NCBI GenBank assembly: GCA_003971905.1 | Contig: RSEE01000007.1 | Coordinates: forward strand, 868,001 to 932,000 | From: Moniliella sp. 'wahieum' | Lineage: Eukaryota | Direction: 5' to 3' | Length of the DNA: 64,000 bases | Shown: positions 9,597 through 54,504 of the stretch, piece by piece | How positions within the stretch are numbered: the first letter of the stretch is position 1 | Layout of the letters: the number at the start of each line of letters is the position of its first letter | Made by a program: the position numbers and the translations under genes | The notes under the pieces: model-generated | Told to the model about the DNA's origin: nothing | Databases searched by the model: none | Seen by the model: the letters and a program-made list of their open reading frames with translations, nothing else

Positions 9597-11884
9597 GGCT
9601 GGGAATGCGGGTAGCGCATGCAGCAGCAGTGGTGCGCTGATGGTGGTGGTGGTGGCAATGGCGCGGACGGAGGCCGCAAGGGAAGCAGCTCGGACCAAGC
9701 CCAGCGGGTGGGAGGCGGGGGTGGCTGGTGGGCTCCGGCAGCTGGCCACGGTTCGCTGGGGACTTGCGCCAGTGGGGGGAGGGGCGGCGGGCAGGGGACG
9801 GGAGGCAAGCGGGGGAAAGAAGGAACAGGCAGGTGGGTTGATAAACGACGGCTGGTGCCAGAAGCCGACGAGACGACCGATGAGCTCGATCGATGAGCTC
9901 AGGGCGAGCGGTGAGGCCGGTGAGGACCCGTGGTATGTGACAGTGTGTGACATGCGCCATGGGATGCAGTGACCGGGTGCTGAGACAGCGGCAGTCCCTG
10001 GCAGCGCGGGAGGCAGCGCGGAGGCAGCGCGGAACAGTGCGGGGCTGGGGAGGGCCGCGGCCGGTGCTGCATGTGATGTGGCAATCATCGATGGGCCATG
10101 GCTGGTCGTCGGGCACGGGGCCAGCGCCGAGCCTGGCGCCTGGCCCCGCAGCACGAGCAGCGGCGCTGTGTCGGCAAGCTCCACGGAGCTTTCGGAGCGC
10201 GCCCAGGCTGCCAGGGGGGGCATGCACCTCCTTGCTGGGTGGTGGGTGTATTCCTCGGTACGCGTTGCTCCTGAATACGAATCCGAATGCATTCGCACGA
10301 CGGCGTTCCTATCCTTTTCCTGGTTTGATTCTGAGCTGCCGCGGGGCTGGCTTTTTGGTACGAGCCATGCGAAAGGCGCCCGGCTTGCCTTGGCTGCTTG
10401 GCCATGAACATGTAAGTGTGCTGATGCATGATGCGTTACGCGTTACGCGTTACGCGTTACGCATTGTGCCTTAGGGCATCTCCGAATCCCACGGCCTGAC
10501 CTGGTTCCCATATTCGAGAACAACCCTTGACACTTTTCTTGACTTGAGACTGTCGAGTCAAAACGTTTCGTTTATGTCCGTTTCCTCCTCTCCCACAGTC
10601 CATTCCCGCAGCCATGCATTGTAAGAATGTCTTCTACGCGCTAGCACTCTTCTTCCAGTCAAGCGCCGTGCTTCAAAAGCTTCAAAAGTAACTATACTGA
10701 CATGGGGAAGAGGGCGGAGCTGACGGGCAGCGCTCAAAATCACCGTTGGTACCGCGGGTCTCCACGCGCTGAGGCTGAACACGCTGAGCGCTGAGCCCAG
10801 GCTGAGGCTGAGGATGGGCGCTAAGTGTAAGTGTAAGTGTAACATTTTAACATGCAAGCCCAAAGCCACACGAAGAGCCCCCAGTTTGAACGTGTGGCAA
10901 CGTGTGGCCGTGGCGCCTGCGCATTTCCATTTGCATTTCCGTTTGCACGGTCCAAGTGATCATCGATCACATCCCCCAGCTCTCGTTGGCTTTTTATACC
11001 GGGCATAACGCGTAACGTGCACGGACAAGCATGGTATTACTTGTGTAGTCCCCGTCGGCCCGATCGGGCCCGCCGAGGTCGTCACGCGTCACGTAAACGT
11101 TTTGATTTCTCCCCTTGTCAAGCTTCAAGCTTCAAGCTGCAAGTTGCAAGCTCTTCAAGTACGCGTCAGGCTCAGGCGCTCATCGATCCTCCACCATCCC
11201 TCGCGTCGGCGGCTTGGCTGTCAGTTGCCGGGGAGCAGAGGCCGCTGGCTGTCTTGGCGCTCTTTCTGTTGGTTGCAGTCATTGGCAAAAACGTCAGTAC
11301 GCGCGTCACGCGTCAGTACCGTCAGTACTCAGTACCAGTGGAGAGGAAAACGAGTGACTAGTGACATAGTGACTCAAACGCTCAAACGCTCAAGTGGAGA
11401 GCCTTAAATTGAAGCTGATCGCGTTGGAGTACTGAGAATCGGACGGGGACTGGCGTTGCTGGATCCCTTTCCTCCTACAGGCTTTTCTTTCCCTTTCCCT
11501 CTTCGCTTCTCGCTTCCCCCCCGTTGTTGTAGCCAACAAAGTGCGCTCCAGAAGCGCGGCAAACACACACGTTCGGGCAAGTAGACCGTAGCCATTCAAT
11601 TGCATGCAGACTGCCGCGTCCCTGCTCCGCCTCCTACTCTATCCACTCGGTCACCCGCCTGGATCGCAGCGTCTGAGATCCGAACGTCAATTGGGCCCAC
11701 CCCTGCGCTCCATCCCAGCCCTCTGCCACCTCCTAGTACCACTACCACTACAACACGTAGAGTGTTCTGAGTGTTCTGCTTGTACGTCACCATGCATTCC
11801 CCACGTGGATTTGCTACAAACAGATTGCGGCGGCGGGGAGGGGGGGCGCTGCCCGCTCATCATCATGCATCATATCTCCCCCGC

Positions 11885-14800
11885 TCAAAACGAAACGTCC
11901 GGCCCCGAATCGTCATCGAGGATGCGCGTGACCTCCGGCCGACGGTCGAGCCACTTGACAAAGGTGGGAAGGAGGAATGTTTTGCGTGGCGCTCCACCAT
12001 CGAGCCGACAAAGGAGCTGTCGGGCGCGACGGACGAACTCGTCTCGTCCTCCCACGCCACGGGCGTGTCGGGCGCACTGGTCATGCTCATACTCATGCTC
12101 GTGCTCATGCCCATGCCCGCTCATGCCCACCCCGCCAGCGTCAAGAGTCGTGTCGGCGCTGGAGGACGGCGCGGGTGGGTGCGCGCTGTCAGTCGCCAGC
12201 GCAGCAGCCTTTTCCAGTAAGTACCCGGTAAACGCAACCAGATACCCATACCGCTGTAGGTACTGCACAAACACCCCCGCAGCCGACGTAGGTTGGGTGC
12301 TGCTCGGCAGCGCGCTGCCGCGCATCAAACGTGGCCGTGCGTAGGTTCTGGACCGAAGCCATCTGGTCAATCGCTGAATCGGCCAATTGCTTGGCCAACC
12401 GGCCATACTGCAGGACAGACACCAGTTGAAGAATACAACGGTACTCTCCTGCCCGAAGGAATTTCTCGTCGTCCCACTCTTCCTGCGTGGCCGAGATGGC
12501 TTCGGTCAGGGTACGCACCCGACCCATCCGCACCCGCACTCGCCGCTGCCCTAGCTCTAGCCCCGACATGCCCGCCGCCTGGTCGTCATCAGGCTCCGAG
12601 GCCGAATCCTCGGAGCTTTCGCTCAGGATTGTTGGGCCCCCGTCAAGAGATCATCGCCACTCACCGCAACGGTAGCAACAAGCGCAGCAATGATCATCCC
12701 CGTTGTCGTCCGTCCCCGGCCCATTTGGCAGTTCCATGCGCTCATCCAGCCACGCTGAAGCGCCGTATGCACCCGAGCTTCGATTTTGGAGAAGGTCGCC
12801 GCTCTCGGCGCCTGCTCATCCGTCACGGCAATCCGAGCATAATCCACCGCGTACCCCTCGGCGGCCGCTTGGGCATAAACTTCCCGTGGCGTCTGGATGT
12901 CCAGGTCTTCATTGTCAATCTGCGCCCACAGCGGAATCACCTCGAACCGGCCCGAGGCCAGGCCCACCTCGTCGTGAAGCAGCACACGGTTGCCCCGAGC
13001 GCGCGACTCGGCAATCACGTCCCGTTTGAGTGCCGCCTCCATCCGCTCCACCACTTCGGTGGAAATGCCAGTGGCCTCGACGTTGGTCAGAGGCTGGTCT
13101 GCCAAGCGCAAGACGTGAGGACGCCCCTTGACATACAACACTGGTTCCTCGCGCAGCGAGGTCCATACCACCCCGTGCACAGACGCGACCCCAGGCCACT
13201 GCCTGTCGTTAACGACGATTGTTGCCGATGGTGGGCTACATCCCGAGCATGCGCATAAGAGTGCCGGTCTCTTGAGTGAGGCATCACCCCATTTGTTGCA
13301 ACCCGGCCCGCAAACCTTCAACCGGGGCATCCCTGTTCCCCATACCACCCTTTCCGCTAGGGCTTGCAGGTTGACGCTCGCTGATAGAGAGTCAACCGGA
13401 ACCAAAGGAGGGCCTCCTCACGCAGGTTGGGCATTCCTTCGATCCGTAGGGGCAAGTTGCGCTTGAGAATCCCTGGGAAAAAGTCCGACTTGAGCAAAGT
13501 AAAGGGCGTGAGAATGTCCGCTGCGAGCGCTGATCACTTCTTGCTCCTCCGTCTCCGTCACGTCAATATCGGCAGGCTCTCGGCTGCTAGGCTTCGTTTC
13601 TGCCGCCGGCTCGGCGAGCGCAGGTAGGCGCCGGCCTTGGTTGGGAGAGGGGTGATGGTATCGAGACTGCGGCGGTCAAACTCTTGCGAGATGGTCTCAA
13701 GAACAGGCTGCGATGCGACAAACTTCTCGTACGTGGGACGGAGGGGGAGTTGGCTGTCGGTAGACATGAGATACGCTTGAAGAATCATCAAACCAAAGTA
13801 GCGTTTCAGCCCAGCAATGCCCGACGCAATCCGTGCCGTACGCACCCCTGCATCGGTTGTTTCGGCTGCTGCGGCACGGTCCTCTTCAATCGCATCGCGA
13901 ATGTTGAGGATGGTGGAGCATCGGTCGATCGCTGCATCAACCTTGCGCTTTACCTTAGTGCCCTTGGGCAAGACGCGAGAGTAAACTGTTGATAATGCGG
14001 TACTGCAACGGTGTAGAACGGGACGTTTGCACCTCATCTTCGGCACCGGAGATGGGAAGGCGGACGCCACGCCCACTGCTTGGAGCTGCGGAAGCGTCAC
14101 CCGGGCAACGAGACCTTGGGCGCCTGGCCAGCCACTTCAGGCACCGAGGCGTGCTCCTCCAGCGTATCCGCACCATCGACCCAATCCGAGACCATGGTAA
14201 CAATGATCGAGGCCAGGGTACTGCGCCCACGGCCGAGTTGGTCGTTGACCACAATCGGGGACGATCCAACCCGGGCTTTGAAAATGGTGATGAGCAGATC
14301 ATCAATGTCATTGGGGTCAGGCATCCTCTCCGATGTGATGGGAATCCGACGAAAGGCCAGCTTGGTTGGCGATCTTTCGTCCGTCTCACCCAAGGCTGGA
14401 GCAGAAGATATGGTGTCGTCCTCGCCCGAGCCATTGTCCGATTCAAGTCCTGTAGCAAGTTCGGCCATGTCGGACGCTTGGGCAGCCATGACCTCTGCCA
14501 CCGTTTGTACGTCCTTTGGCGGCCTCGACCCACATGGGCACAACTTGGCCTCCAGCAGTCTCGGTGTGGAGAAGAATGCTTCCTTCCCCGGCCCTCAGTT
14601 CCATGAGCACATCACTTCAGTCGCTCCTCGAGCAGCTGCAGACGAGACCAGCTGATTCCGCTGAAAGACTTGATGTTGCGCAGGCTCACCTCGCTCGGAC
14701 GAAGACAGTAAAGCTTGCCATTGATGTAGACCAATGGCTCCTCACGCAAGTTGAGCCAAGTGATGCGCTTGGGGGGGCTAAAAGAGCGGCGAAGGACCGT

Positions 14801-16775
14801 CAATAGGGCTTACGGATTCCATGTTGGGTAGGTTGCCCCGTGGCATAAACGTCCATGTGCTCCACCTGGGTAAAGTTAACTGTACCGGCAACAGCTAAAC
14901 CAGCATGAGCTGCCGCCTCGGCAAACTTGTGCCAAATGTCCCGCTTGAGGATAGTGTGGGAACGCAGCACAATACCAACCCGATTGCGGACCACGTGTTG
15001 AGCAAATTCATCCCCAATCTCGTGCTCAGCCTCGCCTCCCTCAAGCACAGTTGAAATAGTTAGCGGTTGGCCTGAGATGGCAGCACTCAGTACGCTCAGA
15101 TCGGCCACAGGATCAAAGACGTAGGGGGCATGCTCCGAGCGCGGATGCGCTTGACTCCACTCCAAATTTCGGGCCGATTCTGGAGCCAGACACTAAATCG
15201 GTGACTGAAGATGGCCGTTTGGGAAGCATTGACATAGGAGGCAAACGCAATAAGGAAGTAGTAGCGTTCCAGACTGCGCAACGCCTTTGTCAGAATGACC
15301 CGCGCCTCCTGTCCGTTTGCTTAGCATCCGATTGGCTCGTGGCGGCCGCATATTGGACGCGGCCAAGAAGGATTGCCTCACGCAAGTTGGTTACTTGGGC
15401 AGCCGCGTCAACAGCAATGTCGAGCGTAACCTTGTCCTCCAGGCCCTGATCGAGAAGCCCAGTGAGCTGCATGATGATGCCAAAGTCACCCGAGCTTGCC
15501 TTGCGCAAGTTGTCAAGGAGGACAGGTTGTGTCATTAGAGCCATCATGATACTTGGCTCATCTCACGAGGGAAAATGTCCGTAATGTCCTTGAGGATACG
15601 TAAAAGAGCTGTAGTCTGAGCTTGCTGTTGGGTGGCAGCCTCGACACTCTTGGCCACGGCTGTGCTAGGTCCACTGGGCAAGGCTGTGGCAGCCATCGAG
15701 TCAGGCCCCCGCTGGCCATAGGCCTTGAATGGATCCGGGTACCAAGTAAAAGTAACATCTGTGCGCCGGATCAATAGGGCGGCCACCATAGCAAACGTGG
15801 TCCGGTTGAAGCCGGCACCACAGTTGGCTACAAGTGACGTGTTGCGGGGGTCGATGCGCTTGATGATCTGGGCATAGGCATCCAGCTGGGAGACGGTCAG
15901 TCGATGCACACTCCAAGAGAGGGGAGAGAGAAGAAAGAATGCATACATAGTTGTGCTCAATCGGCTGGTTCTCGCCAATGGGAACGCGGTGATACTCGAG
16001 CTTCCAGCCGGAGCGAATGAGGTGCAAGAAGACTTCCTTGACAGTTAACACAGACTCGTTTTCGAGGAAAACCCAAGTTGGGACAATCCGGCCCCCCTGT
16101 CTTCCTCATGGACCAGCAACATGTTTTGGTGACGGGCGGCTTCGCGTAAATGTCTTCCTTGAGACGATCCTCAATGCCTTCCAGATTTGAGGCGCGGTCG
16201 GAGATCTGAGTGTCCGGCGTGGGTTTTCAAAGTCACGTAAGACGAAGGGTCTGCCAGAAATGTAGATGACAGGTTCTTCGCGAGTGCAAACCCAAACGCA
16301 CTTGTCGCGGGTTCTGAAGTTGGGATTGTGCAGTCCGCCGGTGGGGGTGTGGGTGCCGGAGGCTACACCGGCGGGGCTGAAAGTGCGCTCTGGGGCATAA
16401 GAAGGCAGCAGCAGCGGCCGAGGCGGGGTCGGAGGTGGGGGCAGGGCTGGTGACATGGTGGTGGATGTGGAGGTTTGGCTGACAGCCCAGCGCGGCGAGG
16501 ATGGACTTGAGGCCGGGGATGCTGGGCTGGGCCGAGCCATACACGCCCAGATCGGCAGCGGCCTTGCGGAAGTTGGGGGCGCCGCTGAGTTGGATGGGCA
16601 GGTGGGAGGGGCGGGCGCCAGCGTATGCGTCGGTCTTGATGATGAGGCCGCGGGTGAGGACGTTGCCCTTGCGGCCGCGTACGACGGCATCGTCTTCACG
16701 GCCCCACCAGGCAAGCTGCTGCTGGTCGGCGACGGAGGGGCTGTGGGTGCCCGGGGGGAACGGGGACCCGACCAT
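11885..16775 (-). CDS. Paladin-like protein with three PTP-like (inositol phosphate phosphatase-type) domains
   Basis: Repeated GAPNFRK/GTVNFTQ, QP motifs and three REEP motifs (CTREEPVIYISGRPFVLR, NLREEPLVYINGKLYCLR, SLREEPVLYVKGRPHVLR). P-loops NCGAGFNR, NDQLGRGR and NCQMGRGRTTTGM. Many indels; true start may lie upstream. Confidence 0.9.
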
Positions 16776-17505
16776 GGGACGGCGGGGGATGGTGGGGATG
16801 GGGGGGATGGGCAGGGGAAGGGGCTGGAGGGCGTGGACGGGGCCAGAGCACGACGGAGACTAGCCGGTGGTTGGTAGCTTCTCGTGCCCTGGCAGGTCAC
16901 GATCCAGCCGAGGCAGAGGCTCGGCTGAGAGCTGGGACACTGCCGCGTGCTGGGAGACGCGCGCCCAAGCATAAGCGGGCCTGGGCGGGGAGCGGTGACG
17001 GAGTGATAGTGACGCGAGTGACTAGTGACTAGTGACGCTAGTGACGCAGCACAGACGGGGGACGCGACGGCTGACTCGGAGGGACGAAGACACGGCTATG
17101 CGAGGCGAGGCGATGGATGGTGGGCGCCGCCGCCGCCGCAGCAGCAGCCGCTGCAGACAGCACGCGCCAGAGGGCGGTGTGGTTCGACGGAGGATGTGGG
17201 CGGTCGACGTCGATGGAGCTGGACGGCTGGGCAGCAGGCAGGCAGGCGGGCACTGGTCACGTGGCGGGAGTGACGTCACGCGCCTGCCCAGAAGGTGGGA
17301 GAGTGGGGCGGGGCAGCGAAGGACTAATTAATGACAGCGCCGCGCTTCTGCTTGGTCACATTGCCCCTGGGCTCGCCTCCCTCGGCTGGCCTCCTGGCCG
17401 CCCATCCCCACCGCCCCCGGCGCATCCCCCACCCCAGCAGGCCTGGACGCCGCCGCCACGCCCCGCTTGCCCCTTGCCCCCCTCGCCTCTGCCCGCCGCC
17501 CCGCC

Positions 17506-20987: not shown

Positions 20988-22806
20988 ATGCTCGACCTGC
21001 CCCTCCCGTTTCTTGTCCTTGCCATCGGGGGTTCGGTGGTCGTGGTGCTCGTGCCTGTACCCCGACCGTCCGGTGGGCGTGCACAAGGTGCCAGGCTTGC
21101 CCACCGTTCCTGGCCGCCTGCCACTGATTGGCAACTGGAAGATGATGTGGAAAGCAGTGAGCGGCCAGACGAAGGACGGACTGGACTATATGCTGGACTT
21201 TCAACGCACGCTTGCTCCAGGCGGGCGTCCGTTTGCGTTCCATGTGCCCTCGCTGGGCGGGCAAACGACAATGTTGAACCGGCCAGAGTACCTGCAGTGG
21301 GTGCAAAGCGGGAAATCCACTTGACAATTACTGCAAAGGCGCACCCTTTAGCCGCAACTTTGTGACCTCCTCTCTGAGACGGGCATCTTTGTTGCCGATG
21401 GCGACGTGTGGAAGCGGCAGCGCAAGCTCGCCTCGCGGATTGTATGTAGTCTTCTTTGTTGTTCCTACCTTTTCCTACCACTCCACGTTTCAGGATAACA
21501 GTTCCCATGGTGCTGACCAAATATATCCTCTCCACTTGGACAGTTTTCCGTCAACAACTTTCGTTCTCATGTGCAGCACTCTGTCCAACGTCACCTCGTT
21601 CCTCTGGTGCAGCTGGCTGAGGATGCAGCCGCTCGCCAAGAGGAGATTGTGCTGCCCGATATATTCTTCCGCTACACACTGGAAACATTTGGTATGATGG
21701 CATTTGGTGCCGACGTGGGATGTCTGCCGTACGTGCCGTCCTATCACTCCGCCCAGGATACCGAGAAGCTGATCCTAACCGCTACTCTGTGATTTTCCAG
21801 CTCCAAGGTAGCAGGATTAGAAAACAGGTTCCATTCGCGGTGGCGTTTGACTATGCGCAGGCTGTGATCAATGAGCGTTTTATGGACCCAGTCTGGCCAG
21901 TGACGGAAATCTTTTCCCAACGTGGGCGCAAGATGCGAGCGGCGTTGAACACGATCCGAACGACCTGTGTGAGATTATTGACCAGCGGCAGGCCAACCAA
22001 GCCCAAGGTGGGTCCCAAGGTGCCCAATCGAAGGAGGGAAAAGATCTGTTGCAACTCTTTATGAGCGAGGGCTTGACTCGGACGAGCTGCTTCCGATTGT
22101 GCTCAACTTTATCATTGCTGGACGGGACACAACGGCACAGGCATTGACCTGGTGCATCTACCTCCTTCACTCGGCCCCTGAGGCGACGACACGGTTGCGC
22201 GAGGAAGTGGCAAAGTGTTGGGCGAAGGACAAGACCAGCGCTTGATGGAGTATGATGACCTCAAGAACATGCCCTACACCCAAGCAGTGGTGCACGAGAC
22301 GTTGCGCCTTCAGCCTCCGGTGGCCAAGAACATCAAGTATGCTGTTGAAGCAGATGTGATCCGGCCTTATGCCCAAGAAAAGCTGGTGGGCGGCACGCCC
22401 GAAGATCCGTATGGACGGGTGCCGTGCCCAGTGCACCCCTGGGAGACGTGATCATCCAAAAGGGCACGACGGTGACCTGGTCAGACTATGTTATGGCCCG
22501 AATGCCTGAAGTATGGGGAAAAGATTGTGAGCAATTCAAGCCCGAGCGCTTTCTCAAACCGATGGGTCCCTGAAAACGTTTAGTCCTTACGTGTTCCATG
22601 CCTTCAACGCAGGCCCACGCCTGTGTTTGGGCCAGACGCTGGCTCTGTATGAAGCCAGTGCCGTCTTGGCTGCCCTACTGGGCCAGTTTGATGTCGTTTT
22701 CAACGAGGATGCTTTGGCTCGCAATCCTCCAACCTATGCCGAAAGTATCACTCTTCCCATGCTCAATCCTTACCTTTCCAAACTTGTTCCTCGTGTCGTG
22801 GCTTGA
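20988..22806 (+). CDS. Cytochrome P450 resembling CYP86/CYP94-type fatty-acid omega-hydroxylases
   Basis: N-terminal membrane anchor; GIFVADGDVWKRQRK; I-helix FIIAGRDTTAQAL; ETLR; FKPERF; heme motif FNAGPRLCLG. Introns about 21443-21543 and 21729-21800. Confidence 0.93.
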
Positions 22807-43475: not shown

Positions 43476-45810
43476 TTAACCAAGAGGCTGAACCACCACC
43501 GATTTACCAGCCCATTGATGCGGTAACTGGATCTGGGACCGTCCCGTGCCATCGTCAAACGTGGCGGAACCGAGCCATTCGCCAGGCTGGCTGCCATCCG
43601 ACTCGGTCGCCGCAAACACTTCATAGAATGGAGTCCAGGGAGCAAAGTCAGGCCATTCGGCCAAGCCCTTCTGGTTGACCTGGACGCCCGAGTCTCGTCC
43701 AGGGCCGAGTTGGGTGCAACGAGCGCCACAGCGCCCACAGTGATATCGACCGACTTGGTCTGCCCCCCTTGGGCTGCACGTGAATCCCCAACTGCGCCAC
43801 AGGTCCACCAGAGCCGTCAAGTCCATCTGACCTTCGCTCCGCACCCAACCAGACCCAAGGAGCGTCGAGGTGAACTCGGCGACTGGCTTGTCATTCATGC
43901 TCGGAACCAGCGTCACATCTTCAGATGACTTGAACACGCAGACGAGCTTGACCAGGGTAGGGTGGTTTGCTATGGCGAGATGAATCAAGGGGACAAAGGC
44001 AGCGGTGGTTGGGTCCTGGAAGGTGACGGCCAACTTGATGGCCAAATTGCCCGCCCACACTTCCTGCGCCTCCTCCTGCACAGATACCGTCGCGCCCCGG
44101 AGCAAAAAGTCCGACTGGGACCGAACATTCGGCCACAGCGCTTCGGGCTGAGGCATGGTTGCCCCGACATCCGTGTATCCGGCAGCTCCCTTCTCTGGGA
44201 CGGGACCGGCGGCGATGGCCAGAACGGTGCGGCCCCGCACAGCCCATCGTGTTCCGGATCCTCGCGCAAACGAGGTGTAGAATCCGCGCGAAGCGCAGAG
44301 ACGGGACGGGATGGGGAGGAAAGTAGTAGGCCAAAGGCGCCGATCCTTCCCCGCGGTCTTGTCGCGCTCCAGAACCGGTGCGTGGTACCCCTGGGCAGGG
44401 TGGCCGCGCCAAAACTTGACATCTTCTTCCCACCAGGCATCCCAAGACCGACCCTCTCGCCCAGGTTCCTCGTGCTCCCACGTCCAACCGGGCGCGAACA
44501 GAGCGACACTGAGACCGGAGGGAGAGCGGTCGGAGGCGAGGCCCTTGCCGAACCGATGGGGCATCACCATGTCCAAACTCTTGTACGTCTCGCGTCCGCC
44601 ATAGCAGTTGCGTCCAAACACATCAATGCCAGTAAAGATCTGATTGCGAGGACGTTGGCTGCCCAGCACTTGAAGCGAACACAGCAGTGCCGGATGGAAT
44701 CCGCCTTCTTCCGGCGTGCCATCGTACTTGGGCGAAGGCAAGGGCAGTGCACCTGGTACGGCAGGTCGTAGGGTGGGACTAGCCCACGTATAATTGGTAA
44801 AGATACTGTCGGCAGCCTGGAAGAACGGCTGGTTGAGGTTGGTGAGCGCATCCTGCCATTGAAGCAGTCCATCCGAATAGGTCACCGAGTCATACCAGCT
44901 GACGTGCCAGCTACGTTTGGGGCCCGGGCGCGTTCCCGCATCGACTTGCTTGTTGTAGGCTTCGACGCGCTCTTGCCCGGAACTGCGCAAATAGCTGACC
45001 CATGCTCGGAGGCGGCGTGCATTGCGCCTGCGTTCGCGCGCGCGCACAGCAGTATGCACCCAACTTGGCCACTGCTCGGCGCTGCACTGGAACCCGAGCT
45101 CAAGGGGTAATTCAATGTTGACCAACCAGCCATCCAGGCCACGCTCAATGGCCAGGGAAATCAGCACATCGGCATAAAAGGGAGACACAAGGTCGTTCCC
45201 TTCGCCCCCGCCGGGCAAGGGCAAGTACTCGTCGTCAGGCCCCAGCAGCAGTTGCGAAAGGCCTGGGATGGCTTCCTTCCACTCAAAGATACTGTGTCAA
45301 GTCGCCGCGTTAGACGGGACGAGACGACGGGGGCAGGGCAGGGTCAGAATACATACATGGTTCCCAAATCTTCGTCCCAGCGCGGTGGGCAGCTTGAATC
45401 CAGGCCATGGGTGGGGGGAAATGGTCTTGTGGAAAAGTATACAAAGTAGTCGGCCAGTTGCCTTGGCATGGGCATGGTCAGCATCTTTGCGACTAGGATT
45501 CAGACAGGGGGCGAGGGGAGGCGCACCAGTGCTCAAACGTGTATCCTCGCCGGGTAGGCGTCTCGTTGTACCCGCCCTGAAAGTCGTGGGCGACCATCAA
45601 GAGCGGGCGGTTGGGGTTACCGGGTGTCAGGGTGGAGGCAGCGGGGGTGCGGGCAGCTATGGCCTCCATGTCGGCGACACTCAAATGCTGGCGGTGGTGC
45701 ACAGCACTGGGATCGAGGGCGACCTCGGCCCAACTCTCGAGGAGAAGGAGGTCCTCAAAGTAGGGCGGCGCATCAGTCGGGTCGGGCGGGAGGGAGAAGG
45801 AGGCAGGCAT
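43476..45810 (-). CDS. ENGASE: Endo-beta-N-acetylglucosaminidase, glycoside hydrolase family 85
   Basis: VAHDFQGGY; YTFEHW; GLDGWLVNIE (catalytic N-x-E); WYDSVT; WQDALT; IFTNYTW; GIDVFGR; SVALFAPGWTWE. One likely intron near 45452-45527. Confidence 0.93.
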
Positions 45811-46186
45811 GGGAGCGGGCGTGGAGGGTGGAGGGGTAGCGGGTAGCAGCGAGCGTGTTGGCCAGTTGCGTGGCTTTGCCAGCAGTGGCTAGCGCCTACC
45901 AGTGGGGCTGAATATATGCAGGGACGGATCGCCGCGCTGGCTGACATAATACCGACTACCTAGTTACTACTTGCTGCGCCACCTCCCCCCCGCCACCTTT
46001 CGGTGCAAGCCATCCAAAGTTTCAACGGACACGTGCGCCGCACACGGACGAACCCTGCCTGTCAGCCGGTCACGTTTTTTAGCAGTAGGGTTGCTGCTTC
46101 GGTCCTTCGACAAGCCAAGCCCAGCACTCCCGCGCGCAACAGGCATCGGCAGTGCTCACCACCACCACCTCCTTATTTTGCCCACC

Positions 46187-46727
46187 ATGGAGTCCATTGC
46201 CGACCAGGTATGTCCCCAGCGTGCCACTCGACGGCCGCCTGACCCTTGCCCGCCACTCATACTGACCTGGGCTGCCTCTGCCTTTGACCAGTTTGTCAAC
46301 TTCTACTACTCGCAGTTCGACACGTCGCGCGACGCTCTTGCGCCCCCTTACGTGTGTATCCTCCCCTCCTGGGGCTTGCAGCCAGCTTTCTTTTGGCGCA
46401 CAGGCATGCTAACTCGACCTCTATGGCTCCTATGTTTTCCCATCTAGCGCGACCACTCGATGCTCACCTTCGAGGGTTCCCAGCACCAGGGTACGGCGGC
46501 CATCATCGAGAAGCTCAAGGCGCTGCCATTCAGACTGTCAAGCACCAGGTGGACACCAAGGATGCCCAGCCGACGGGTGCCGACAGCAACCAGCATTGTT
46601 GTGCTGGTCACGGGCAAGCTCTTGGTTGATGACTCGCCTGCTCCGCTCCAGTCACCCAGACCTTCACCCTCAACCCGAAGGTGGCTCGTTCTACGTCTAC
46701 AACGATCTTCCGCCTTTGTACGGCTAA
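46187..46727 (+). CDS. NTF2: Nuclear transport factor 2
   Basis: MESIADQ / FVNFYYSQFD / SMLTFEG...IIEKL..LPF / DAQP / VLVTGKL / FYVYND. Introns about 46208-46291 and 46352-46447; several indels. Confidence 0.95.
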
Positions 46728-47498
46728 AGTGCCCAGCATGCATCCTAGTTACCATAAAGATCTCTTCATTAAACTAGTGATTGCGTATAACCCCCGTACC
46801 AATCATGCATTCAAACTGTTTGTAGAAATGGCAACTGTATGCATTGGCTCGCTCCTCAGTACAACAGTCTCTGTCCTTGCGGCGTTGAGCCAGGTCACCC
46901 AACCCCTCCAGAATCAACTCGCTTGGCCCGACGCGCGTGCCTCCCCTTCGTTTCGGTATTTGCTGGCACCCTCAAGGATGCATTTGCTGCCGGCGTCAAT
47001 CAAGTCCTGGGATGTAGCATCACTCTGATAGAAGAATTGAAGCGCTTTCCTCAGTCGGTGTGAAACTTGGCTGCCGCTGCATCTGCGGCGCCAATGTGTC
47101 ACGCCATCTCACACCTCTTCCTTGCTCGCAGGGCAGCAATAGATGTATGTCCAGCGCCAAGTATCCGCGGCTTGAGTAATCTGGACTCAGGAGAGGGAAC
47201 CCCCGAAATTCAAGTGAACGGAGGAGGGGGGGGCGCACAAGAGACGAACTGGTTAGCCACGCATCCCCAGCCAAACAAAGGCTTGGGACCGTCGATAGTA
47301 CCCTTTTCCTCCTTGCGGTCCCTTTCCACGCCGTCTTCTTTGCCACCGGTCTAAACAGAAGCAGTCAAAGCCTGTATCATCTCAGGTGCACATAGAGGGA
47401 GGAGGCGGCAATGCGGGGATCATACAGGACGTGGGAGGGAATGGCATGGACCGAGGGAAGCGGTGACCACCACACAGCGGATCAACGAAATAGATAAA

Positions 47499-47633
47499 AA
47501 ATATCAGCGGATGTCCGGAGGCTGATATCGGCGACGTATTTGCATGGTTTTGAGGGAAATGATGTCAGCGACGGCGCAAAAGAGGTCGTTGATGTCGCGA
47601 CGGCGCAAAAGAGGTCGTTGATGTCAATGATGT
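47499..47633. repeat. Left subterminal repeats of the CMC element
   Basis: Two 29-30 bp tandem units GATGTC(A)GCGACGGCGCAAAAGAGGTCGTT (47561-47619), plus ATATCGGCGACGT (47525) and ATGTCAATGATGT (47621). Confidence 0.8.
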
Positions 47634-47749
47634 GCAGCGCGGGGGGCCAACTGCCGGCTACATGTGAAACTTTGCGTCGTTTCAAAATCCCACCCGGCCA
47701 CACCATTTCGTGTCTTCTGATGCTAGGAAATGCTACCAGAACCACCTAG

Positions 47750-49850
47750 TCAACACGCGTCCTTCCTATACGCGCGCACGGTAGCTGGCCAACGGCAGGG
47801 AATCGATGCTCTACGGGGACATGCGTCTTCAGATTAGCCAGGGGAACATTGGCAATGGTGTGGTCAAGGTCTAGTCGTCAGGTAAATGGAAGCTCATTTC
47901 ATGTGGACCAAAAGGCAGGCCATGCAGGACAACATTGTGCCCACTGATAGGGGTTTGGCTCATCAGGCGTCCGTCCTGCGGTTAGTTCTGCTTGAGTACA
48001 GGGCAGGCAGGGACGACTGGTGCAGCCCCGCTGAAGATAGGCTTTTGTTGGTCCTTCACATTGCTTTGACCCCGCAAACGAAAGTCATGAAAAGTCTGTT
48101 GGGTTCTCCGAGCAAACCGACGAGATCATCGAGAGTCGTTCGTCCTGATAAATCCATAGTCGGACAGGCGCGTTTGAGAGATGGGTCTGAAACCGAAATC
48201 CGTCAAGCGAGACTGTCTCCCAGAGGTTAGGCTGTCGTATACGCGGACTTGACACTTCTTCACCATCTCTTCTTCTTGTTCCATCAGGTGTGTGTGCTCG
48301 TGAGCCAACCGTCTGACCCATTCCGCGTTGGCTCCGACAACAGTAAGGTGTTGTGGATGAGGCCGGAGCTTGGGCCCCATGGTCCGTGTAGTGTAGGCGT
48401 CCTTCTATCGCAGTGTTCTGACTCGGCCAGATATTCATTGGACCAGATCAATTGTCGGTGGTCACAGAATGACCCTGACCCGTCGAACGGACCAGCAAAG
48501 CGATGAACGACACCAGTTCGACAATGAATACGGGTAACGACAGGTTTTACATTTGCGGACCGGCATGCCCTTCAACTGTTCCTTGACGCAAAACTCCACC
48601 TTTTGCTTAATGAACGCGGTGTTGCGTGTGCGATCTGTCCCAATGTCCGGGAAGATTGTCATTGGAAGTCTCCGCTCATCAGCTGGCAGCCTGGCAAATA
48701 ATAAAGGCGATGTGCAGAGCCACGTCGCGTCGCGCCAGAGGCCCAGGGAAGTACCGATGCGCAGTAGCTCCCACGATAAAGGCTAGAGATAAAGGTGATC
48801 GTGCCAACATACGCGCTTGTGTATTTAGAGCACAGTCGTCTCGCTTGGCAACACATCGCGAGCCGGATGGTGAAGTGGGATTCGCGTTAATCCATCTACC
48901 CCAACTTGCGAGTGGAGGTCATCTGAGACATCACGCATAGTCAACGTGGGAACGGTGAAAATATATTATTTTCCCACTCCAGCGTGGAACGGTGGCTAAG
49001 GGGGCGACGCACAGCAATAGTTAATCTCATCAGTGGCAGGCCCAGTTCGGCGAGCTCTCGCCGCATATACTTTTTGGTAACCACAACTGGATGATGTTGA
49101 TGACGGCAATGAACGGGTTCGTAAAGGGCGCGAACATATTGCTAGCAATCGGACCGTGGTGACTTATTGTTTCCCACATCCTCAATACACAGAGCCGGAG
49201 ACTGCAAAAAGGAGTGCGTCTTATTGTGAGGCATCAGACTTGTGTGTGCGCGCCGAGTTGATCGCCGCTCTGGCTTGGATCCGGACTGAGGATCCGCTGT
49301 CGCTTAGGGTTCGGTAGGCGGGCCAGCCGACTGTGGGCAAAGCACGTTTCAGCGTTGTCCTCCATCCAAAAGCATCTTCCACATCGCCATTTTGCGTGGG
49401 AGACCCAGGGGGCAATCCAGAGAGGGGCTGACGGTGCAATTCAGGGGAGGCCACGTCTGGCATATTAATGTCAGATGTGTGCCACAGTAGAGATGGTGGC
49501 CAGCGCTTGCCGGTTGGAACCAGCTGGGATCGTGCTTGCGCGCCGGAGCACAGGGTGCACGAATGATGCCTGCTGCAGTGTCCGGTGTTGCAGCGGGTTA
49601 TTGGACGCGACCCGGTGTGCCCAGTGTGATCTTGCTGGTGACGTCGGGCGTCCCTGTGTCGAAAAGACGAGTACGGGTATCGATGACATATCCGGTGCAT
49701 ACCAATGGCTGGCAGTGCTGGGCATTCTGGCAGCCGAAAAGAGTTGAAGCAAGAGTTGGAGGAGCTAGGGCTCCAGTGTCCAGTACCTCGGTGTCGATAC
49801 ATTGCCGGTGTACCAACGGCGAACGTTTGAATGTGCGACTCAACTTTCAC
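47750..49850 (-). pseudogene. Fragmented unknown gene inside the CMC element with two PIP-box-like motifs
   Basis: Protein-like minus-strand pieces: LSWELLRIG...FIKQKVEFCVKEQLKG; WVRRLAHEHTHLMEQEEEMVKKCQVRVYDSL; QSRLTDFGF and QTRLSDYGF. Boundaries uncertain; stops and frameshifts present. Confidence 0.45.
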
Positions 49851-50713
49851 TGTTGGCCTGGCTGCTTCGATCTGTCCAGGACACTACGTAGCCTTATTCG
49901 CTCACCATCGAGCGATAGTTGCCTACCGGTCACGGGCGAGCTGGCAATCCTGACGAAGCCTATGTGCGCCTGTCGCCTTATATTCCCCAGGTTGGTCATG
50001 GGGTCAGATTCAATCTGGAGACGATAGTCGCCCCGTGCCCTTTTAGCTTAGGTTGCCCGTACCACAACCGCCCTCCTTGTTTTCCCCTGTCCCCCGTTCT
50101 TTCTCTACGCTACACAGCCTTGCCACACTGGCAGCCACCACTGCTATATCCGAGAAGTCTTTCCTTGTCCCTATCCCCGCTCGGACCCACCAATCATTAA
50201 TTAGCGCTCAGCCCAAGCGCGTAACCACCGTGAGTCGACGTTAGGTTCTCCAATGGATTAGATCTTAGACCCCTTAACGTCCTTAACCCCCCCGGGCGGG
50301 CCCCCTGGCAGCGCCCGCGCGTACACTGCCTGGTGCAGAGAATGCTGGGCGCAGCCTATTCCCTGCAGCAACAGCGCCTCAATACTTCTTCCGTTAGGCC
50401 CCTGGCTAGCCAAATCCGGCCAGGGGCAAAAGACTTGCCTAGTGCATTGTATGGAGCCCCCCGCATGTGAGTGGCGCAATCTGCTCTACCCCCACACTGC
50501 AGCCCACACTTGACAAGAACCAGCCAGACCCCCTGGTCCTGCCTCTTTCCACATACACCCCACCACCATCCCTCGCCACCGTTCCACCAGAGTAAGTGCA
50601 ACAGCCCGTCCAGGCAAAATGCTCGTGCGAGCCCCTCTCGCGGACCCAGCAATATCGCCGGTCCAGCTCACACCCGCACCGTCAACAATAAGCTAGGTCG
50701 TCAGGCAGCCGAA

Positions 50714-52126
50714 ATGGACGAGGTGTACGTAGACGACCCACCCCCCCCCCCCCCACCAATCTGGCAGCGCCCCCCCCGCCTGCATCCTGACGGTCCCTGA
50801 GAGACAGCGGCATATCACGGTGAAAGCGCGCAGGCAAATGATCCAGAAAAGATGTCGATCAAGATTCCACAAGCGACGCACAAAGTCACGCCAGTGCCAC
50901 TGGGGTAAGAATTGTCGAATCCATTAGCATGTCGGCTAGACAGCACGTTTTGCTGATGGTGGTCAAGAGTCCACCGCTCTCGGCGCCTCCCCCACTAGAT
51001 CCACCATCAACAGTGTCTTATCCAACATCATCCAGAGGGGGCAACGCTCAGCACAAGCTATTTGAATGAAGGTGCGTTGAGCCAAACCTCTAAACCAACT
51101 ACTAACAAATAACACATCGTTCAGATCCCGGAGAGCATGCACCGCATCCGCGCAACAGGCAACGAAACGATCCAGAGGCGGGTAACGCTCAACAAAGGCT
51201 ATTTGAATGAGGTGCGTTAACCCAACCCTAAACATCTATTAACAAACAACACGTCGTCCAATTGCCACAGAGAGCATGCATCGTATCGATCGAGCAACGG
51301 AAGGCGCACAATTGCAGCCTTTCAGGCTAATTTCGTGCGTCAAAGTTTCCAGTCTACTTTCGCATCCCTCTCACCAAGAGTTCACTGTCGCCAAGGAGCG
51401 CATCCGAATCTGGTACGTACTGGCCCCCGCCTCATCACGCGTTGCTCTCTTCGCAATATGGCCACAATAACTTCATCCGTTCTCATCAAAAGCGCTTCTG
51501 TTGCTACGCACCGATCAACTTTGACTTCCGGAGGGAAATGGAACGTGTCTTACAAAATCACAATTTCTCTGACCCATCTGGCCTGGGTAACCTCCTCCTC
51601 GACCAGAGTCTGAAGAACAGCGACCGCTGCAGTGACATTTTCGGTGCCATCACTGTCTCTGGGTCCGATCATAAGTACGTCCTCACCCCGTTGTCGTCCA
51701 GCAGGTCATCTGACCTTTTTCACTCATCGCCCGCAAGCTATCTACTGGGCTGGACAAGTGCATGGGAGAATTTCGTGGGCATTGCGGACACGCGTCTTCC
51801 GCAAGGGAAGCCTGAAATTTGTACCGCCTGGCGTGCGATGCGTGTTGAACAACTCACCCACCACCGTCACATCGCAGTAACCCGGGTGCAAACCGAAGAG
51901 GAGGATGCACGGGACAACCAAGGCACTGCAGTCAATCTCTTTGACGCAGAGGGCACAGATGGCGAGGACGACGACCGCACAGACGACTCTGAGAATGAGG
52001 AGTGATTTGGCGCCTATACATTCCAGAGAGCTCTCAATGGCGAGCCCCCAAGGCCATATTTTGACCCATCGCAATGAAAAAAGTACCCTCGAAGACGATT
52101 GCACAGCATTCGGTGTGGTGCTATAG
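50714..52126 (+). CDS. Unknown intron-containing gene inside the CMC element, acidic C-terminal region
   Basis: ATG 50714 (MDEVYVDDPPPP); intron-like segments at about 50905, 51072-51124 and 51212-51270; 187-aa ORF 51442-52005 ending in an acidic tract. Confidence 0.5.
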
Positions 52127-52217
52127 AATGAGTAGTAGTATAAAATGTAATACCAATAGTAACCCAGGAAGAGCGAGCATAGGAGGATCAGATTCGTCAG
52201 ATACGTCGCCCAGGGGC

Positions 52218-52405
52218 ACGTCAACGACGTTTCTGACGTTCAAGGGCGTGACATCGAGGACGTATCTGACGTTCAAGGGGATGACGTCGAGGACGTATCT
52301 GACCTGTAGGGGGGTGACGTCGAGGACGTAATAGACCTTCAGGAGGGTGACGTCGAGGACGTATCTGACGTTCAAGGGGGTGACGTCGAGGACGTAATAG
52401 ACCTA
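52218..52405. repeat. Right subterminal 33-bp tandem array (6 copies) of the CMC element
   Basis: Palindromic core ACRTC-N3-GACGT at 52218, 52251, 52284, 52317, 52350 and 52383 (exact 33-bp period); another copy at 52482. Confidence 0.92.
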
Positions 52406-53988
52406 CTGACAGTGACAGGTTTGCACGTCGCCACAGCCAAAACACTCTTCTGACGTTTTTGAAGGTATTTTATATCTTGAAACATCTGTGACGTATTTTG
52501 CTGATCCGCTGTGCAGTGCTGGAATATGCCGTACGAGGGTGTGGCCGATGGCCCGAGGACAGAGAGGGGGCGAGGGGTGAGCTACCAGAAGTTGGGGTGA
52601 GGGTAAGGGTAGGGCCACCGGAGACGTCAATAGAAGGCTACCCTCGTCGATTCTGCCCACAAGCACAAAGCGCCCGGCATTCTTCTTCCGCCAAAGAAAG
52701 TTTTGTGGGCAAGACGGTGCGATGGGCCCTTGCATGCATGTCCCTGCGACCTCCTCTCTGTCCTCTCCGCGGACGCCCAATCAATACGCAGCACCGCCCT
52801 CCCGTTCATCTACCCCCCTTATTGCTAGAAAGCTATGGCGGGCGTATCCCTTCCCACACCTGGCTGACTGGCGAGCCAGTCGCAGTGGGATGTAGGTTAT
52901 AGGGACAGAAGTTGGTATAAAAGAAGGATGCACTGCTACTATTACTATGCTGTGAGGCAGAGGAGCCCGGAAGGAGCAGAGCGGATATAGACCACTGCGT
53001 CCACAGTGCAGTGTTTGTCGGGCACATATACGTGATGGCGCTGACATGAGACAGAAGGCTTTTGGTCACGTTGGATTCAGACGGGTCGCCGGATTGCAGA
53101 ACGATGAGCGGGGGAGGCAGGGGGAGGCAGCAAGTGGCAACACGATGCCAAAAAGTGGTATTACTGTTGGGAGCGGTGGACTAAGAATTGAGTTGCACAG
53201 CGCCGGCATTCTTCTGGCTGCCGCCACAGCATCTCTGCCCCGCCGCAAGCGGCCCCGCGGGGCGGTGCAAAACACGGTATGGCGAGGGCGTCCGAGTGCA
53301 GGAGGCACCGACGCCCAGCCTCCACCGTCCAAACAGCGGCAAGCGCCGGGCGTCGGTACCATGTAACGTGCTGGACCCCGCGTCCGTGCACGCCACAGCC
53401 TGCCACAGCACAGACCACCACTCCCCTCGCTGCCCCCACGCCCCCGCGCCCCCACTTCCCCGTGGGGTTCAGCAAAAGGCGGAAGTCATCGCTCTCATCA
53501 GCACTTCAGCACTCAGCCGGAGCCCCGCGAGCGTCAGCGCCATTCAGCAGCAGGCAGCAGGCAGGCAAGCAGGCAAGCCCCGTGCTCCACCCCCCCACTA
53601 CACAGCAGAGCTCACGCGTGAGCGCACGCCCCAGGCGGTCCAACGTGCAAGCGTCCCCAGCCGCCGCCGCCGCCTCCGCCTCAGCGCGGAGGTTGCCCTG
53701 GGCGGCCCAAACGGCGAGCAGGCGATGCATGATGCGGGCAAGCGCCCAAGTGCTGCGCTGCCACGCGCAAGTCCCAAGCAAGTAGCAGGTGCGCTGCGTC
53801 GCCCCTGGCCGCGGCTGCCCCCCCCCGTCCGACGCAGGGGCTGCGTGGCTGTACCGCCCCCCGCCGTGCAGACTGCCCGCGTGCCGCCTCACCAAGCGCG
53901 GATATATAGGCCTCGCCACCCTCGGCCTCGCCCGCTGCTCCGCCCCTTCTTTCCCACCGCATCCCTTCGTGTTGCTTCTCATCTCACC

Positions 53989-54504
53989 ATGGCATCTTCA
54001 CTCCACTGGAAGCTTGTTATCGGCTCAGACGAGGCTGGGGTCGACTACAAGGCCATCCTCAAGCGGGACCTCGAGGCCGACCCGCGTGTGGTGTCGGTGG
54101 AGGATGTGGGGGTGAATGCCAGCACGGACAAGACGGCGTACCCTCACGTGGCTGTTGCTGCCGCCAAGAAGGTGGCCAGCGGAGAGGCGGATCGGGCTCT
54201 GCTCATCTGTGGCACTGGGCTCGGCGTTGCTATCTCTGCCAACAAGGTCCATGGCGTCCGCGCGGTGACGGCCCATGACTCGTTCAGTGTGGAACGGGCG
54301 GTGCTTTCGAACGATGCGCAGGTGCTTTGCATGGGCCAACGGGTTATTGGCATTGAGCTCGCCCGGCGCCTCGTCAAGGAGTGGCTGGGATACAAGTTTG
54401 ACCCCTCCTCTTCTTCGGGGCCCAAGGTGGAGGCCATCAAGTCATACGACTGTTGTACGTTAACTCCCCTCGCCCCTCTGTATGCCAAAAGGTATCGCAT
54501 ATGA
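53989..54504 (+). CDS. rpiB: RpiB/LacAB family sugar-phosphate isomerase
   Basis: [47 protein letters not shown]. 3' end uncertain because of a possible intron from 54455. Confidence 0.92.

What the first reader, a model, noticed from the sequence alone, without database searches (positions are those of the whole stretch)
47473..52513. CACTA/CMC-type element with intact ends but two divergent unknown genes instead of a visible transposase
Seen: 18/20 TIRs starting CACAG, CA flanks, matching subterminal arrays, and inside a minus-strand gene (about 47.8-49.9 kb) and a plus-strand spliced gene (about 50.7-52.1 kb) pointing outwards from a shared central spacer. I could not find CACTA transposase motifs by eye. 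Established: CMC elements end in CMCWR, non-plant members make 2-bp TSDs, and CACTA elements can carry accessory genes or captured fragments. Inference: a non-autonomous cargo-carrying element or an undescribed CMC lineage with novel accessory proteins. This is the best candidate for a new system in the window.
Basis: partly seen in the sequence, partly recalled or inferred. Interest (0 to 1): 0.8.

Follow-up and report, generated by a model that had tools for sequence, protein, structure and literature searches.

The report
Transposase-less fungal TIR transposon copy
This 5-kb stretch is most likely one copy of a cut-and-paste jumping gene in a basidiomycete fungus; it has the ends of the CACTA-like group, shows no recognisable transposase, carries one small gene of unknown function, and is a fairly ordinary find.

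Summary
The ends are real. There is an 18/20 inverted repeat, CACAG...CTGTG, at 47473-47492 and 52494-52513, with CA on both flanks. The two highest-scoring tandem arrays of the window lie just inside the two arms. An 18/20 inverted pair alone is at chance level here, so the case rests on the conjunction of features. The array units (29 and 33 bp) do not match each other significantly; only short GACGT-type words are shared.

Only one of the two claimed genes holds up. The plus-strand ORF 51331-52005 (ATG at 51538) has host-like codon usage. The minus-strand region 47.7-49.9 kb has no coding signal and no consistent gene model.

No transposase or other family was found by six-frame Pfam, PDB sequences, three word-based protein searches, one full HMMER search or two Atlas look-ups.

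No second copy, empty site, whole genome or sequencing run could be obtained.

Best reading: a non-autonomous or inactive CMC/CMCT-like element with an orphan cargo gene. The closest parallels are CNEST and T1 of Cryptococcus and Sly1-1 of Neurospora. Interest is low to moderate.

The parts
47471..47472 (.). Left flank CA, putative 2-bp target-site duplication
   Evidence: It is identical to 52514-52515. The chance of this is 1 in 16, and no empty site was available to confirm it.
47473..47492 (+). Left terminal inverted repeat CACAGCGGATCAACGAAATA
   Evidence: (I1). There is a possible gapped extension, GATAAAAAATA, at 47493-47503 (3.9% of 3000 shuffles reach its score).
47530..47539 (+). GGCGACGTAT word, also present in inverted orientation near the right end (52201-52210)
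   Evidence: I16; one shared 10-mer; null mean 0.03.
47560..47626 (+). Left subterminal tandem array, 29 bp x 2.3
   Evidence: D5; score 127, second highest in the window.
47700..49900 (-). Left half without a coding signal. It may be a decayed gene remnant or non-coding filler. The longest ORF, 49221-49883 (-), has 220 codons.
   Evidence: all ORFs score <= 6.1; the 220-codon ORF scores -10.1. Searches found no relatives. One search found no RIP signature.
49900..50700 (.). Central pyrimidine-rich (+ strand) stretch between the two halves; a run of 14 C follows at 50741-50754
   Evidence: (GC skew -0.185 for 50001-52000).
51030..51287 (+). Tandem duplication of about 140 bp (51030-51148 and 51170-51287, 79% identity over 122 nt). 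Each copy holds an intron-like piece: 51072-51124 and 51212-51270.
   Evidence: self-blastn; D2, D11, D13; GTGCGT...CTAAC/TTAAC...CAG.
51331..52005 (+). Stop-to-stop ORF of 224 codons plus stop. The first in-frame ATG is at 51538, which gives 155 aa with an acidic tail. This is an orphan cargo gene.
   Evidence: codon score 44.4, 0.198 per codon; 51541-52002 scores 36.1 over 154 codons. Searches found no relatives.
52218..52396 (-). Right subterminal tandem array, 33 bp x 5.4 (repeat finder gives 52180-52437)
   Evidence: D1; score 246, highest in the window.
52494..52513 (-). Right terminal inverted repeat (reverse complement CACAGCGGATCAGCAAAATA)
   Evidence: (I1).
52514..52515 (.). Right flank CA, putative 2-bp target-site duplication

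Best explanation
The stretch 47473-52513 is one copy of a class II (cut-and-paste) TIR DNA transposon. It lies in the intergenic region between a glycosyl-hydrolase-85 gene (minus strand) and a ribose-5-phosphate-isomerase-B gene (plus strand), which are divergently oriented.

[quoted passage not shown] It has tandem arrays just inside both ends.

Shown: the ends, the arrays, the absence of any recognisable transposase, one coding-like ORF, and a left half with no coding signal.

Inferred: the copy is non-autonomous or inactive. If it still moves, a DDE transposase made by a relative elsewhere in the genome would bind the terminal and subterminal repeats. It would cut at the CA/TG ends and reinsert with a 2-bp stagger, here at a CAC-CA-GTG type site.

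The 155-224-codon plus-strand ORF is cargo: an element-borne or captured gene of unknown function. The left 2.2 kb is a decayed or deleted remnant, or filler.
For: TIR 18/20 with CA..TG ends and CA flanks. The two highest-scoring tandem arrays of the 64-kb window lie inside the two arms. The subterminal regions share short words in inverted but not direct orientation: 10 against 1 shared 7-mers, null mean 3.6.

The three bases outside each CA are CAC on the left and GTG on the right, so the presumed target CAC-CA-GTG is symmetric. This explains the 25-nt extent of I1.

No protein family was found in 31 ORFs of 50 aa or more, or in six read-through frames. No relatives came from three word-based searches, which scored 431, 6883 and 7999 candidates with 0 hits. 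None came from PDB sequences. HMMER against 1.84 billion representatives gave one hit, which is an artefact.

Coding signal: the plus ORF scores 44.4, rank 10 of 640 ORFs of 60 aa or more. Eight of the nine above it are the training genes. The left-half ORFs score <= 6.1, whereas host P450 exons of about 90 codons score 16-19.

Literature. The CMCT clade shares CA..TG termini and 2-5 bp TSDs (PMC12730594, passages). CNEST of Cryptococcus neoformans has CACGG ends and 2-bp TSDs (PMC12810828, passages). T1 of C. deneoformans is mobile, lacks a DDE ORF, carries a 258-aa unknown ORF and prefers sites between divergent genes (PMC9942834, passages).
Against: Only one copy was seen. blastn and tblastx found no other copy in the window. 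No genome is held and no sequencing run was listed. Mobility, copy number, TSD and the empty site are therefore all untested.

An 18/20 inverted pair alone is at chance level in this window. A 2-bp flank identity has a 1 in 16 chance. The array units at the two ends do not match significantly.

Assignment to CMC/CMCT rests on the ends alone. The defining transposase is absent or unrecognisable.

The plus ORF uses host codons, which would also fit an ordinary host orphan gene.
Confidence: 0.6

Rival explanations
1. It is an autonomous element of an undescribed lineage. One of its own products, from the plus-strand gene or from a multi-exon minus-strand gene, is a transposase too divergent for current profiles.
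For: The CNEST transposase gave no hit in Repbase and was recognised only by alignment with CMC transposases (PMC12810828, passages). T1 moves without a recognisable DDE ORF (PMC9942834). The plus ORF looks like a real gene. In minus frame b, a D-x(15-40)-CxxC...Hx(3-4)H-x(1-30)-E pattern stands in the order seen in CMC transposases (48267-48647).
Against: That pattern occurs 11 times in 127,996 six-frame positions of the window, so about 0.2 are expected in the left half. It is also interrupted by 3 stops. The left half has no coding signal, and candidate splice joins run into stops (my reading). The coding-like plus ORF has only 155-224 codons, is acidic, and folds with mean pLDDT 33.6. CMC transposase genes in print are far longer: 4.4 kb in CNEST and about 6.9 kb in CNIRT6.
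Confidence: 0.1
2. It is a real TIR transposon of a superfamily other than CMC/CMCT, for example PIF/Harbinger-ISL2EU-like or an unclassified basidiomycete family such as T1. The CACAG ends are then a coincidence.
For: Classification rests on 5 terminal bases and a 2-bp flank identity only. No CMC-type transposase was found. Earlier notes report several other odd TIR elements in this genome, with 7-bp duplications or orphan genes (unchecked AI notes).
Against: The flanks do not show the duplications that I recall for hAT (8 bp), Mutator (9-10 bp), PIF (TWA) or Tc1/mariner (TA). Those figures are recalled; the flanks were read. Nor do they fit KDZ (7-8 bp; PMC12730594 and PMC12810828, passages). 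Plavaka termini (TGT..ACA or CATCA..TGATG) do not fit either.
Confidence: 0.15
3. It is not a mobile element. A chance inverted repeat brackets ordinary intergenic DNA that holds two minisatellites and a host orphan gene.
For: Three unrelated non-repetitive 18/20 inverted pairs occur in the same window. There is no second copy and no empty site. The plus ORF uses host codons. The array units do not match.
Against: The conjunction is unlikely. Only 4 arrays of period 25 or more exist in 64 kb, and two of them, the best two, sit within 120 bp inside the two arms. I estimate roughly 1 in 1000 for both arms even after allowing for about 4 chance pairs. On top of that come the CA..TG termini, the CA flanks and the inverted sharing of short words.
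Confidence: 0.08

Closest known systems
[quoted passage not shown]
   Same: The host is a basidiomycete. The TIRs begin CACGG (here CACAG). It makes 2-bp target-site duplications. Its transposase is invisible to standard repeat libraries.
   Different: CNEST is about 7.2 kb with 33-bp TIRs and TA duplications, and it carries a 4.4-kb CMC transposase gene with a DDE core. This element is 5.04 kb with 20-bp TIRs (perhaps 31 bp with an indel) and CA flanks, and no transposase is detectable. Sequence relatedness was not tested because no CNEST sequence was at hand.
Sly1-1 of Neurospora crassa (CMC superfamily; PMC4592977, passages read)
   Same: It is a fungal CMC element with two divergently arranged units, one of which is a gene of unknown function that travels with the element.
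   Different: Sly1-1 is 11.5 kb with an intact DDE transposase (NCU09969). Here the unit in the transposase position has no coding signal. The plus ORF found no relative among 1.84 billion representatives, so no homology to any library protein was detected; whether NCU09968 is in that library I did not check.
T1 of Cryptococcus deneoformans (PMC9942834, passages read)
   Same: It is a basidiomycete TIR element without a DDE/DDD ORF. It carries one small ORF of unknown function (258 aa) and prefers to sit between divergent genes, as this copy does.
   Different: T1 is 2.7 kb with 11-bp TIRs and has been shown to move. Here mobility is untested and the termini differ in length. Sequence relatedness was not tested.
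Non-autonomous and gene-carrying CACTA/En-Spm derivatives of plants (recalled, no call)
   Same: They keep CACTA-type ends with subterminal repeat arrays of unequal extent at the two ends. Internally they carry remnants or captured genes, and a transposase moves them in trans.
   Different: The plant elements make 3-bp duplications, and their ends carry a defined 12-bp TnpA-binding motif. Here the flank identity is 2 bp and the two arrays share no significant unit.

Membership tests
[quoted passage not shown] | 5'-CA..TG-3' (often CAC..GTG) termini (PMC12730594, passages) | tested here: met
   CACAG...CTGTG at 47473 and 52513.
CMC / CMCT clade | Target-site duplication of 2-5 bp | tested here: inconclusive
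   CA lies on both flanks. The chance of this is 1 in 16. No empty site or second insertion was available.
CMC / CMCT clade | [quoted passage not shown] | tested here: not met
   Six-frame Pfam gave 0 families at E<=1. 31 ORFs gave only noise. PDB sequences gave 0 hits. The motif pattern in minus frame b is at chance level and is broken by stops. A remnant too decayed to detect is not excluded.
CMC / CMCT clade | Subterminal repeat arrays that serve as binding sites (feature of En/Spm, recalled) | tested here: inconclusive
   Arrays lie at both ends, but the units are not significantly alike. Short-word sharing is modest: the observed count is reached by 1.3-2.9% of null pieces for k = 7-10.
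Any active transposon family | Several copies at different sites, or presence/absence polymorphism | not testable with these tools
   No genome is held. No sequencing run was listed. No other copy lies in the window. The 3 metagenome matches to the TIR share only 20-24 nt.
Plavaka (A and B) | Termini TGT..ACA (A) or CATCA..TGATG (B) and a Plavaka transposase (PMC12730594, passages) | tested here: not met
   The termini are CACAG..CTGTG. No Pfam family of any kind, Plavaka included, was found in six frames.
KDZ (Kyakuja, Dileera, Zisupton) | 7-8 bp duplications; KDZ transposase with a CxC zinc domain (PMC12730594 and PMC12810828, passages) | tested here: not met
   The 7- and 8-bp flanks differ: ACCACCA against CAGTGCT. 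No Pfam family was found.
TET/JBP-carrying fungal transposons | Element-borne TET/JBP dioxygenase gene (PMC12730594, abstract) | tested here: not met
   No Pfam family was found in six frames.

The most novel reading that the evidence does not exclude
The element belongs to an undescribed basidiomycete group of TIR transposons, comparable to Cryptococcus T1 and to the other orphan-gene TIR elements noted in this genome. In this reading the group moves without a recognisable DDE transposase. Its small acidic-tailed orphan protein, together with the 29- and 33-bp subterminal arrays, would be part of a new or very divergent transposition or transposase-recruiting machinery.
Probability: 0.08. Interest if true: 0.7.

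Novelty: new member of a known kind. Interest (0 to 1): 0.25.

Why it matters
If the best reading holds, this is one more non-autonomous CACTA-like insertion in a fungal intergenic region. It is useful for repeat annotation of this genome and as a possible marker of strain differences, but it is not a new system.

It would matter more if family members proved mobile with no recognisable transposase anywhere in the genome. That would add to the open question raised by T1 of Cryptococcus: how do such elements move, and what do their small orphan genes do?

The copy sits between two divergently oriented host genes, so it could also affect their promoters.

Tried and rejected
- **Whole genome of the window:** not held.
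- **Public sequencing runs for 46000-54000:** none was listed, and no RNA holder was listed. No splicing, expression or empty-site test was therefore possible.
- **Earlier-findings look-ups:** by place near the finding and by sequence (DNA 47473-49900, 51331-52002, protein P0002) gave nothing.
- **Metagenome scan with the plus-ORF protein:** 270 pattern matches, none confirmed by tblastn.
- **Metagenome scan with the 20-nt TIR:** 3 loci that share only 20-24 nt with the element and look bacterial, so I rejected them as chance.
- **HMMER hit P0001** (E 1.1e-09, 9 stretches): rejected. It is one 24-residue match of 46% identity repeated over the tandem repeats of a 928-aa repeat protein.
- **ESM Atlas:** best score 0.77 for the plus ORF and no usable hit for the 220-codon minus ORF.
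- **AlphaFold2 of the plus ORF, single sequence:** mean pLDDT 33.6, pTM 0.18. The model is unusable, so no fold search was run.
- **Gene models for the minus strand from intron-like patterns:** the two best candidates (48923-49012 and 49573-49702) lead into a stop or into another frame by my reading.
- **C(2)C ... H(3)H lead in minus frame b:** at chance level.
- **RIP or CpG-depletion decay:** not seen. TA/AT is 0.61-0.65, (CA+TG)/(AC+GT) is 1.19-1.21 and CpG o/e is 0.93-0.94, like the rest of the window.
- **Rfam over 45000-54000:** 0 matches at E<=0.1.
- **12-nt core GTCSTYGAYGTC:** I first took it as a shared binding motif. It has 13 matches against 2.2 expected, and 8 of them lie in the element. 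But it was derived after the fact from a 9/12 match. The fair tests are not significant; modest.
- **GC3 frame plot:** not discriminating in this genome.
- **Autonomous partner inside the window:** 47 further ORFs or frames gave no transposase family.
Full report
**Setting.** The window is eukaryotic. Earlier notes of this scan call the organism a basidiomycete, smut-like fungus (unchecked AI notes). Pfam places a glycosyl-hydrolase-85 gene on the minus strand at 43479-45296, with a further coding-like exon at 45496-45888. It places a ribose-5-phosphate isomerase B domain on the plus strand, starting near 54010 inside the ORF 53185-54501. The finding therefore lies in the intergenic DNA between two divergently oriented host genes. 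No whole genome is held for the window and no public sequencing run was listed. Everything below rests on this single copy.

**The ends.** The sequence reads ...GACCACCA|CACAGCGGATCAACGAAATA... on the left and ...TATTTTGCTGATCCGCTGTG|CAGTGCTGG... on the right. That is an 18/20 inverted repeat with CA directly outside each arm. The three bases outside each CA are CAC and GTG. The presumed target CAC-CA-GTG is therefore symmetric, which explains why repeat finder extends the pair to 25 nt (I1). With an indel of about 17 nt, the arms may continue for another 11 nt (GATAAAAAATA against GATATAAAATA). The extension is weak: 3.9% of 3000 shuffles reach its score.

**How much of this is beyond chance.** The pattern search (2 matches, 0 expected) is not the right null. 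A direct scan for inverted 20-mers with at most 2 mismatches at 1-15 kb found 6 clusters in the window. Two belong to one low-complexity (GAAGCTT)n pair, three are unrelated pairs, and one is this pair. The case for a transposon rests on the conjunction of features. Of the 18 TRF rows for the whole window, the two best scores (127 and 246) are a 29-bp x 2.3 array at 47560-47626 and a 33-bp x 5.4 array at 52218-52396. They lie 88 and 118 bp inside the two arms. Only four arrays in 64 kb have a period of 25 or more. Adding the CA..TG termini and the CA flanks, I take the element as real with about 90% confidence.

**The 'matching' arrays.** The units do not match. The best cyclic local alignment of the two consensus units in inverted orientation scores 11, and 21.8% of 2000 shuffles reach that. 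A 12-nt core that I derived from the alignment gives 13 matches against 2.2 expected, 8 of them in the element. It was chosen after the fact from a 9/12 match, so I give it little weight. A fairer test compared shared words between the left subterminal region (47493-47700) and the reverse complement of the right one (52180-52493), using random window pieces as the null. It gave 10 shared 7-mers (null mean 3.6; 1.3% of pieces reach 10), 4 shared 8-mers (2.6%) and one 10-mer, GGCGACGTAT (2.6%). The same-orientation control gave 1, 0 and 0. The two ends thus share short GACGT-type words in the orientation expected for a transposon, but only modestly above chance.

**The inside, right half.** The stop-to-stop ORF 51331-52005 (224 codons) has a codon-usage log-likelihood of 44.4 (0.198 per codon), measured against eight Pfam-supported or long host ORFs of the window. 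That is rank 10 of 640 ORFs of 60 aa or more. Eight of the nine higher scores are the training ORFs themselves. The signal is strongest from just after the first in-frame ATG (51538) to the stop: 36.1 over 154 codons. The 70 codons upstream score 8.3. Upstream lie two intron-like pieces with GTGCGT donors, CTAAC or TTAAC branch sites and CAG acceptors (51072-51124 and 51212-51270). They sit inside a tandem duplication of about 140 bp (79% identity over 122 nt). I could not join these pieces and the ATG at 50714 into one open frame; by my reading the second duplicate differs from the first by one base at the exon end. The secure statement is therefore a coding-like ORF of 155-224 codons with an acidic tail and possibly further 5' exons.

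**Relatives of the plus ORF.** None were found:
- The word-based search scored 431 candidates of 220-700 aa with 0 hits.
- HMMER against 1.84 billion representatives gave one hit, an artefact of a 24-residue match repeated in a tandem-repeat protein.
- The Atlas best score was 0.77.
- The metagenome scan found none.
- The single-sequence AlphaFold2 model is unusable (pLDDT 33.6).

**The inside, left half.** On the minus strand between 49.9 and 47.8 kb, protein-like stretches alternate between all three frames. No ORF there scores above 6.1 in codon usage. The longest, 220 codons at 49221-49883, scores -10.1, whereas host P450 exons of about 90 codons score 16-19. A 220-codon open frame in 5 kb of about 58% G+C DNA is not unusual by my estimate (about 0.3 expected). 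The two best intron candidates lead into a stop or another frame by my reading. Two of the three minus frames read through with X found no relatives: 6883 and 7999 candidates were scored with 0 hits. All three minus frames found nothing in PDB sequences, and the Atlas gave nothing for the long ORF. There is no RIP-like or CpG-depletion signature. A D...CxxC...HxxxH...E arrangement in frame b mimics the CMC transposase motif order, but such arrangements occur 11 times in the six-frame translation of the window and this one is broken by three stops. I read the left half as a decayed or internally deleted remnant, or filler. An intact gene there is not supported.

**No transposase.** 31 ORFs of 50 aa or more gave only sub-threshold noise (E 0.018-0.29). 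All six frames of the element gave 0 Pfam families at E<=1. That covers every Pfam family, including those for CACTA, Plavaka, KDZ, hAT, MULE and PIF transposases and TET/JBP; I recall those families from memory and did not list them by accession. No transposase family appeared in 47 other ORFs or frames of the window either, so no partner lies nearby.

**Comparison with what is known.**
- CNEST of Cryptococcus neoformans (PMC12810828, passages) has CACGG ends, 2-bp TA duplications and a CMC transposase that Repbase did not recognise.
- Sly1-1 of Neurospora (PMC4592977, passages) is a CMC element with a transposase and a divergently transcribed gene of unknown function that moves with it.
- T1 of C. 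deneoformans (PMC9942834, passages) is mobile, lacks a DDE ORF, carries a 258-aa unknown ORF and prefers sites between divergent genes.

For membership of CMC/CMCT, the terminal feature is met, the TSD is compatible but unproven, and the defining transposase is not found. I say the element works like a CMC-type non-autonomous element, but I do not file it as a proven member.

**Verdict.** This is a real but ordinary single copy of a TIR DNA transposon with CMC-like ends and no recognisable transposase, carrying one orphan ORF. Confidence in this reading is 0.6. The rivals are another superfamily (0.15), an autonomous novel lineage (0.1) and not a mobile element (0.08). Novelty: new member of a known kind. 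Interest: 0.25.

Noticed in passing
window 7464-7483 and 11119-11140: There are short 7-bp-period arrays, (TGAAGCT)n and its complement (TCAAGCT)n, each made of a TNA triplet plus the 4-bp palindrome AGCT. They are of the kind other agents reported across this genome as possible excision footprints. The two arrays form one of the chance-level inverted pairs.
   Followed up: partly
window 12626-17095, minus strand: Three separate ORFs match the PTP-like phytase family (PF14566; E 5.6e-47, 6.1e-09, 3.3e-06). This suggests either one multi-exon gene or tandem paralogues.
   Followed up: no
window 21517-22803, plus strand: A cytochrome P450 gene is split into short exons of about 90 codons. The host genome is therefore not intron-free, and these exons served as a codon-usage yardstick.
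   Followed up: partly
window 7775-7860: ARAGORN calls a tRNA-Met (CAT) of 86 nt, which is long enough to hold an intron.
   Followed up: no
window 45950-47025 (+) and 52836-53180 (-): ORFs with host-like codon usage (scores 23.1, 19.3 and 19.4) but no Pfam family flank the element on both sides. They may be small host genes or UTR-proximal frames.
   Followed up: no
window 50741-50754: A run of 14 C lies just downstream of the ATG at 50714 in the centre of the element. It is a likely site of length variation or assembly error, which could affect any frame read through it.
   Followed up: no
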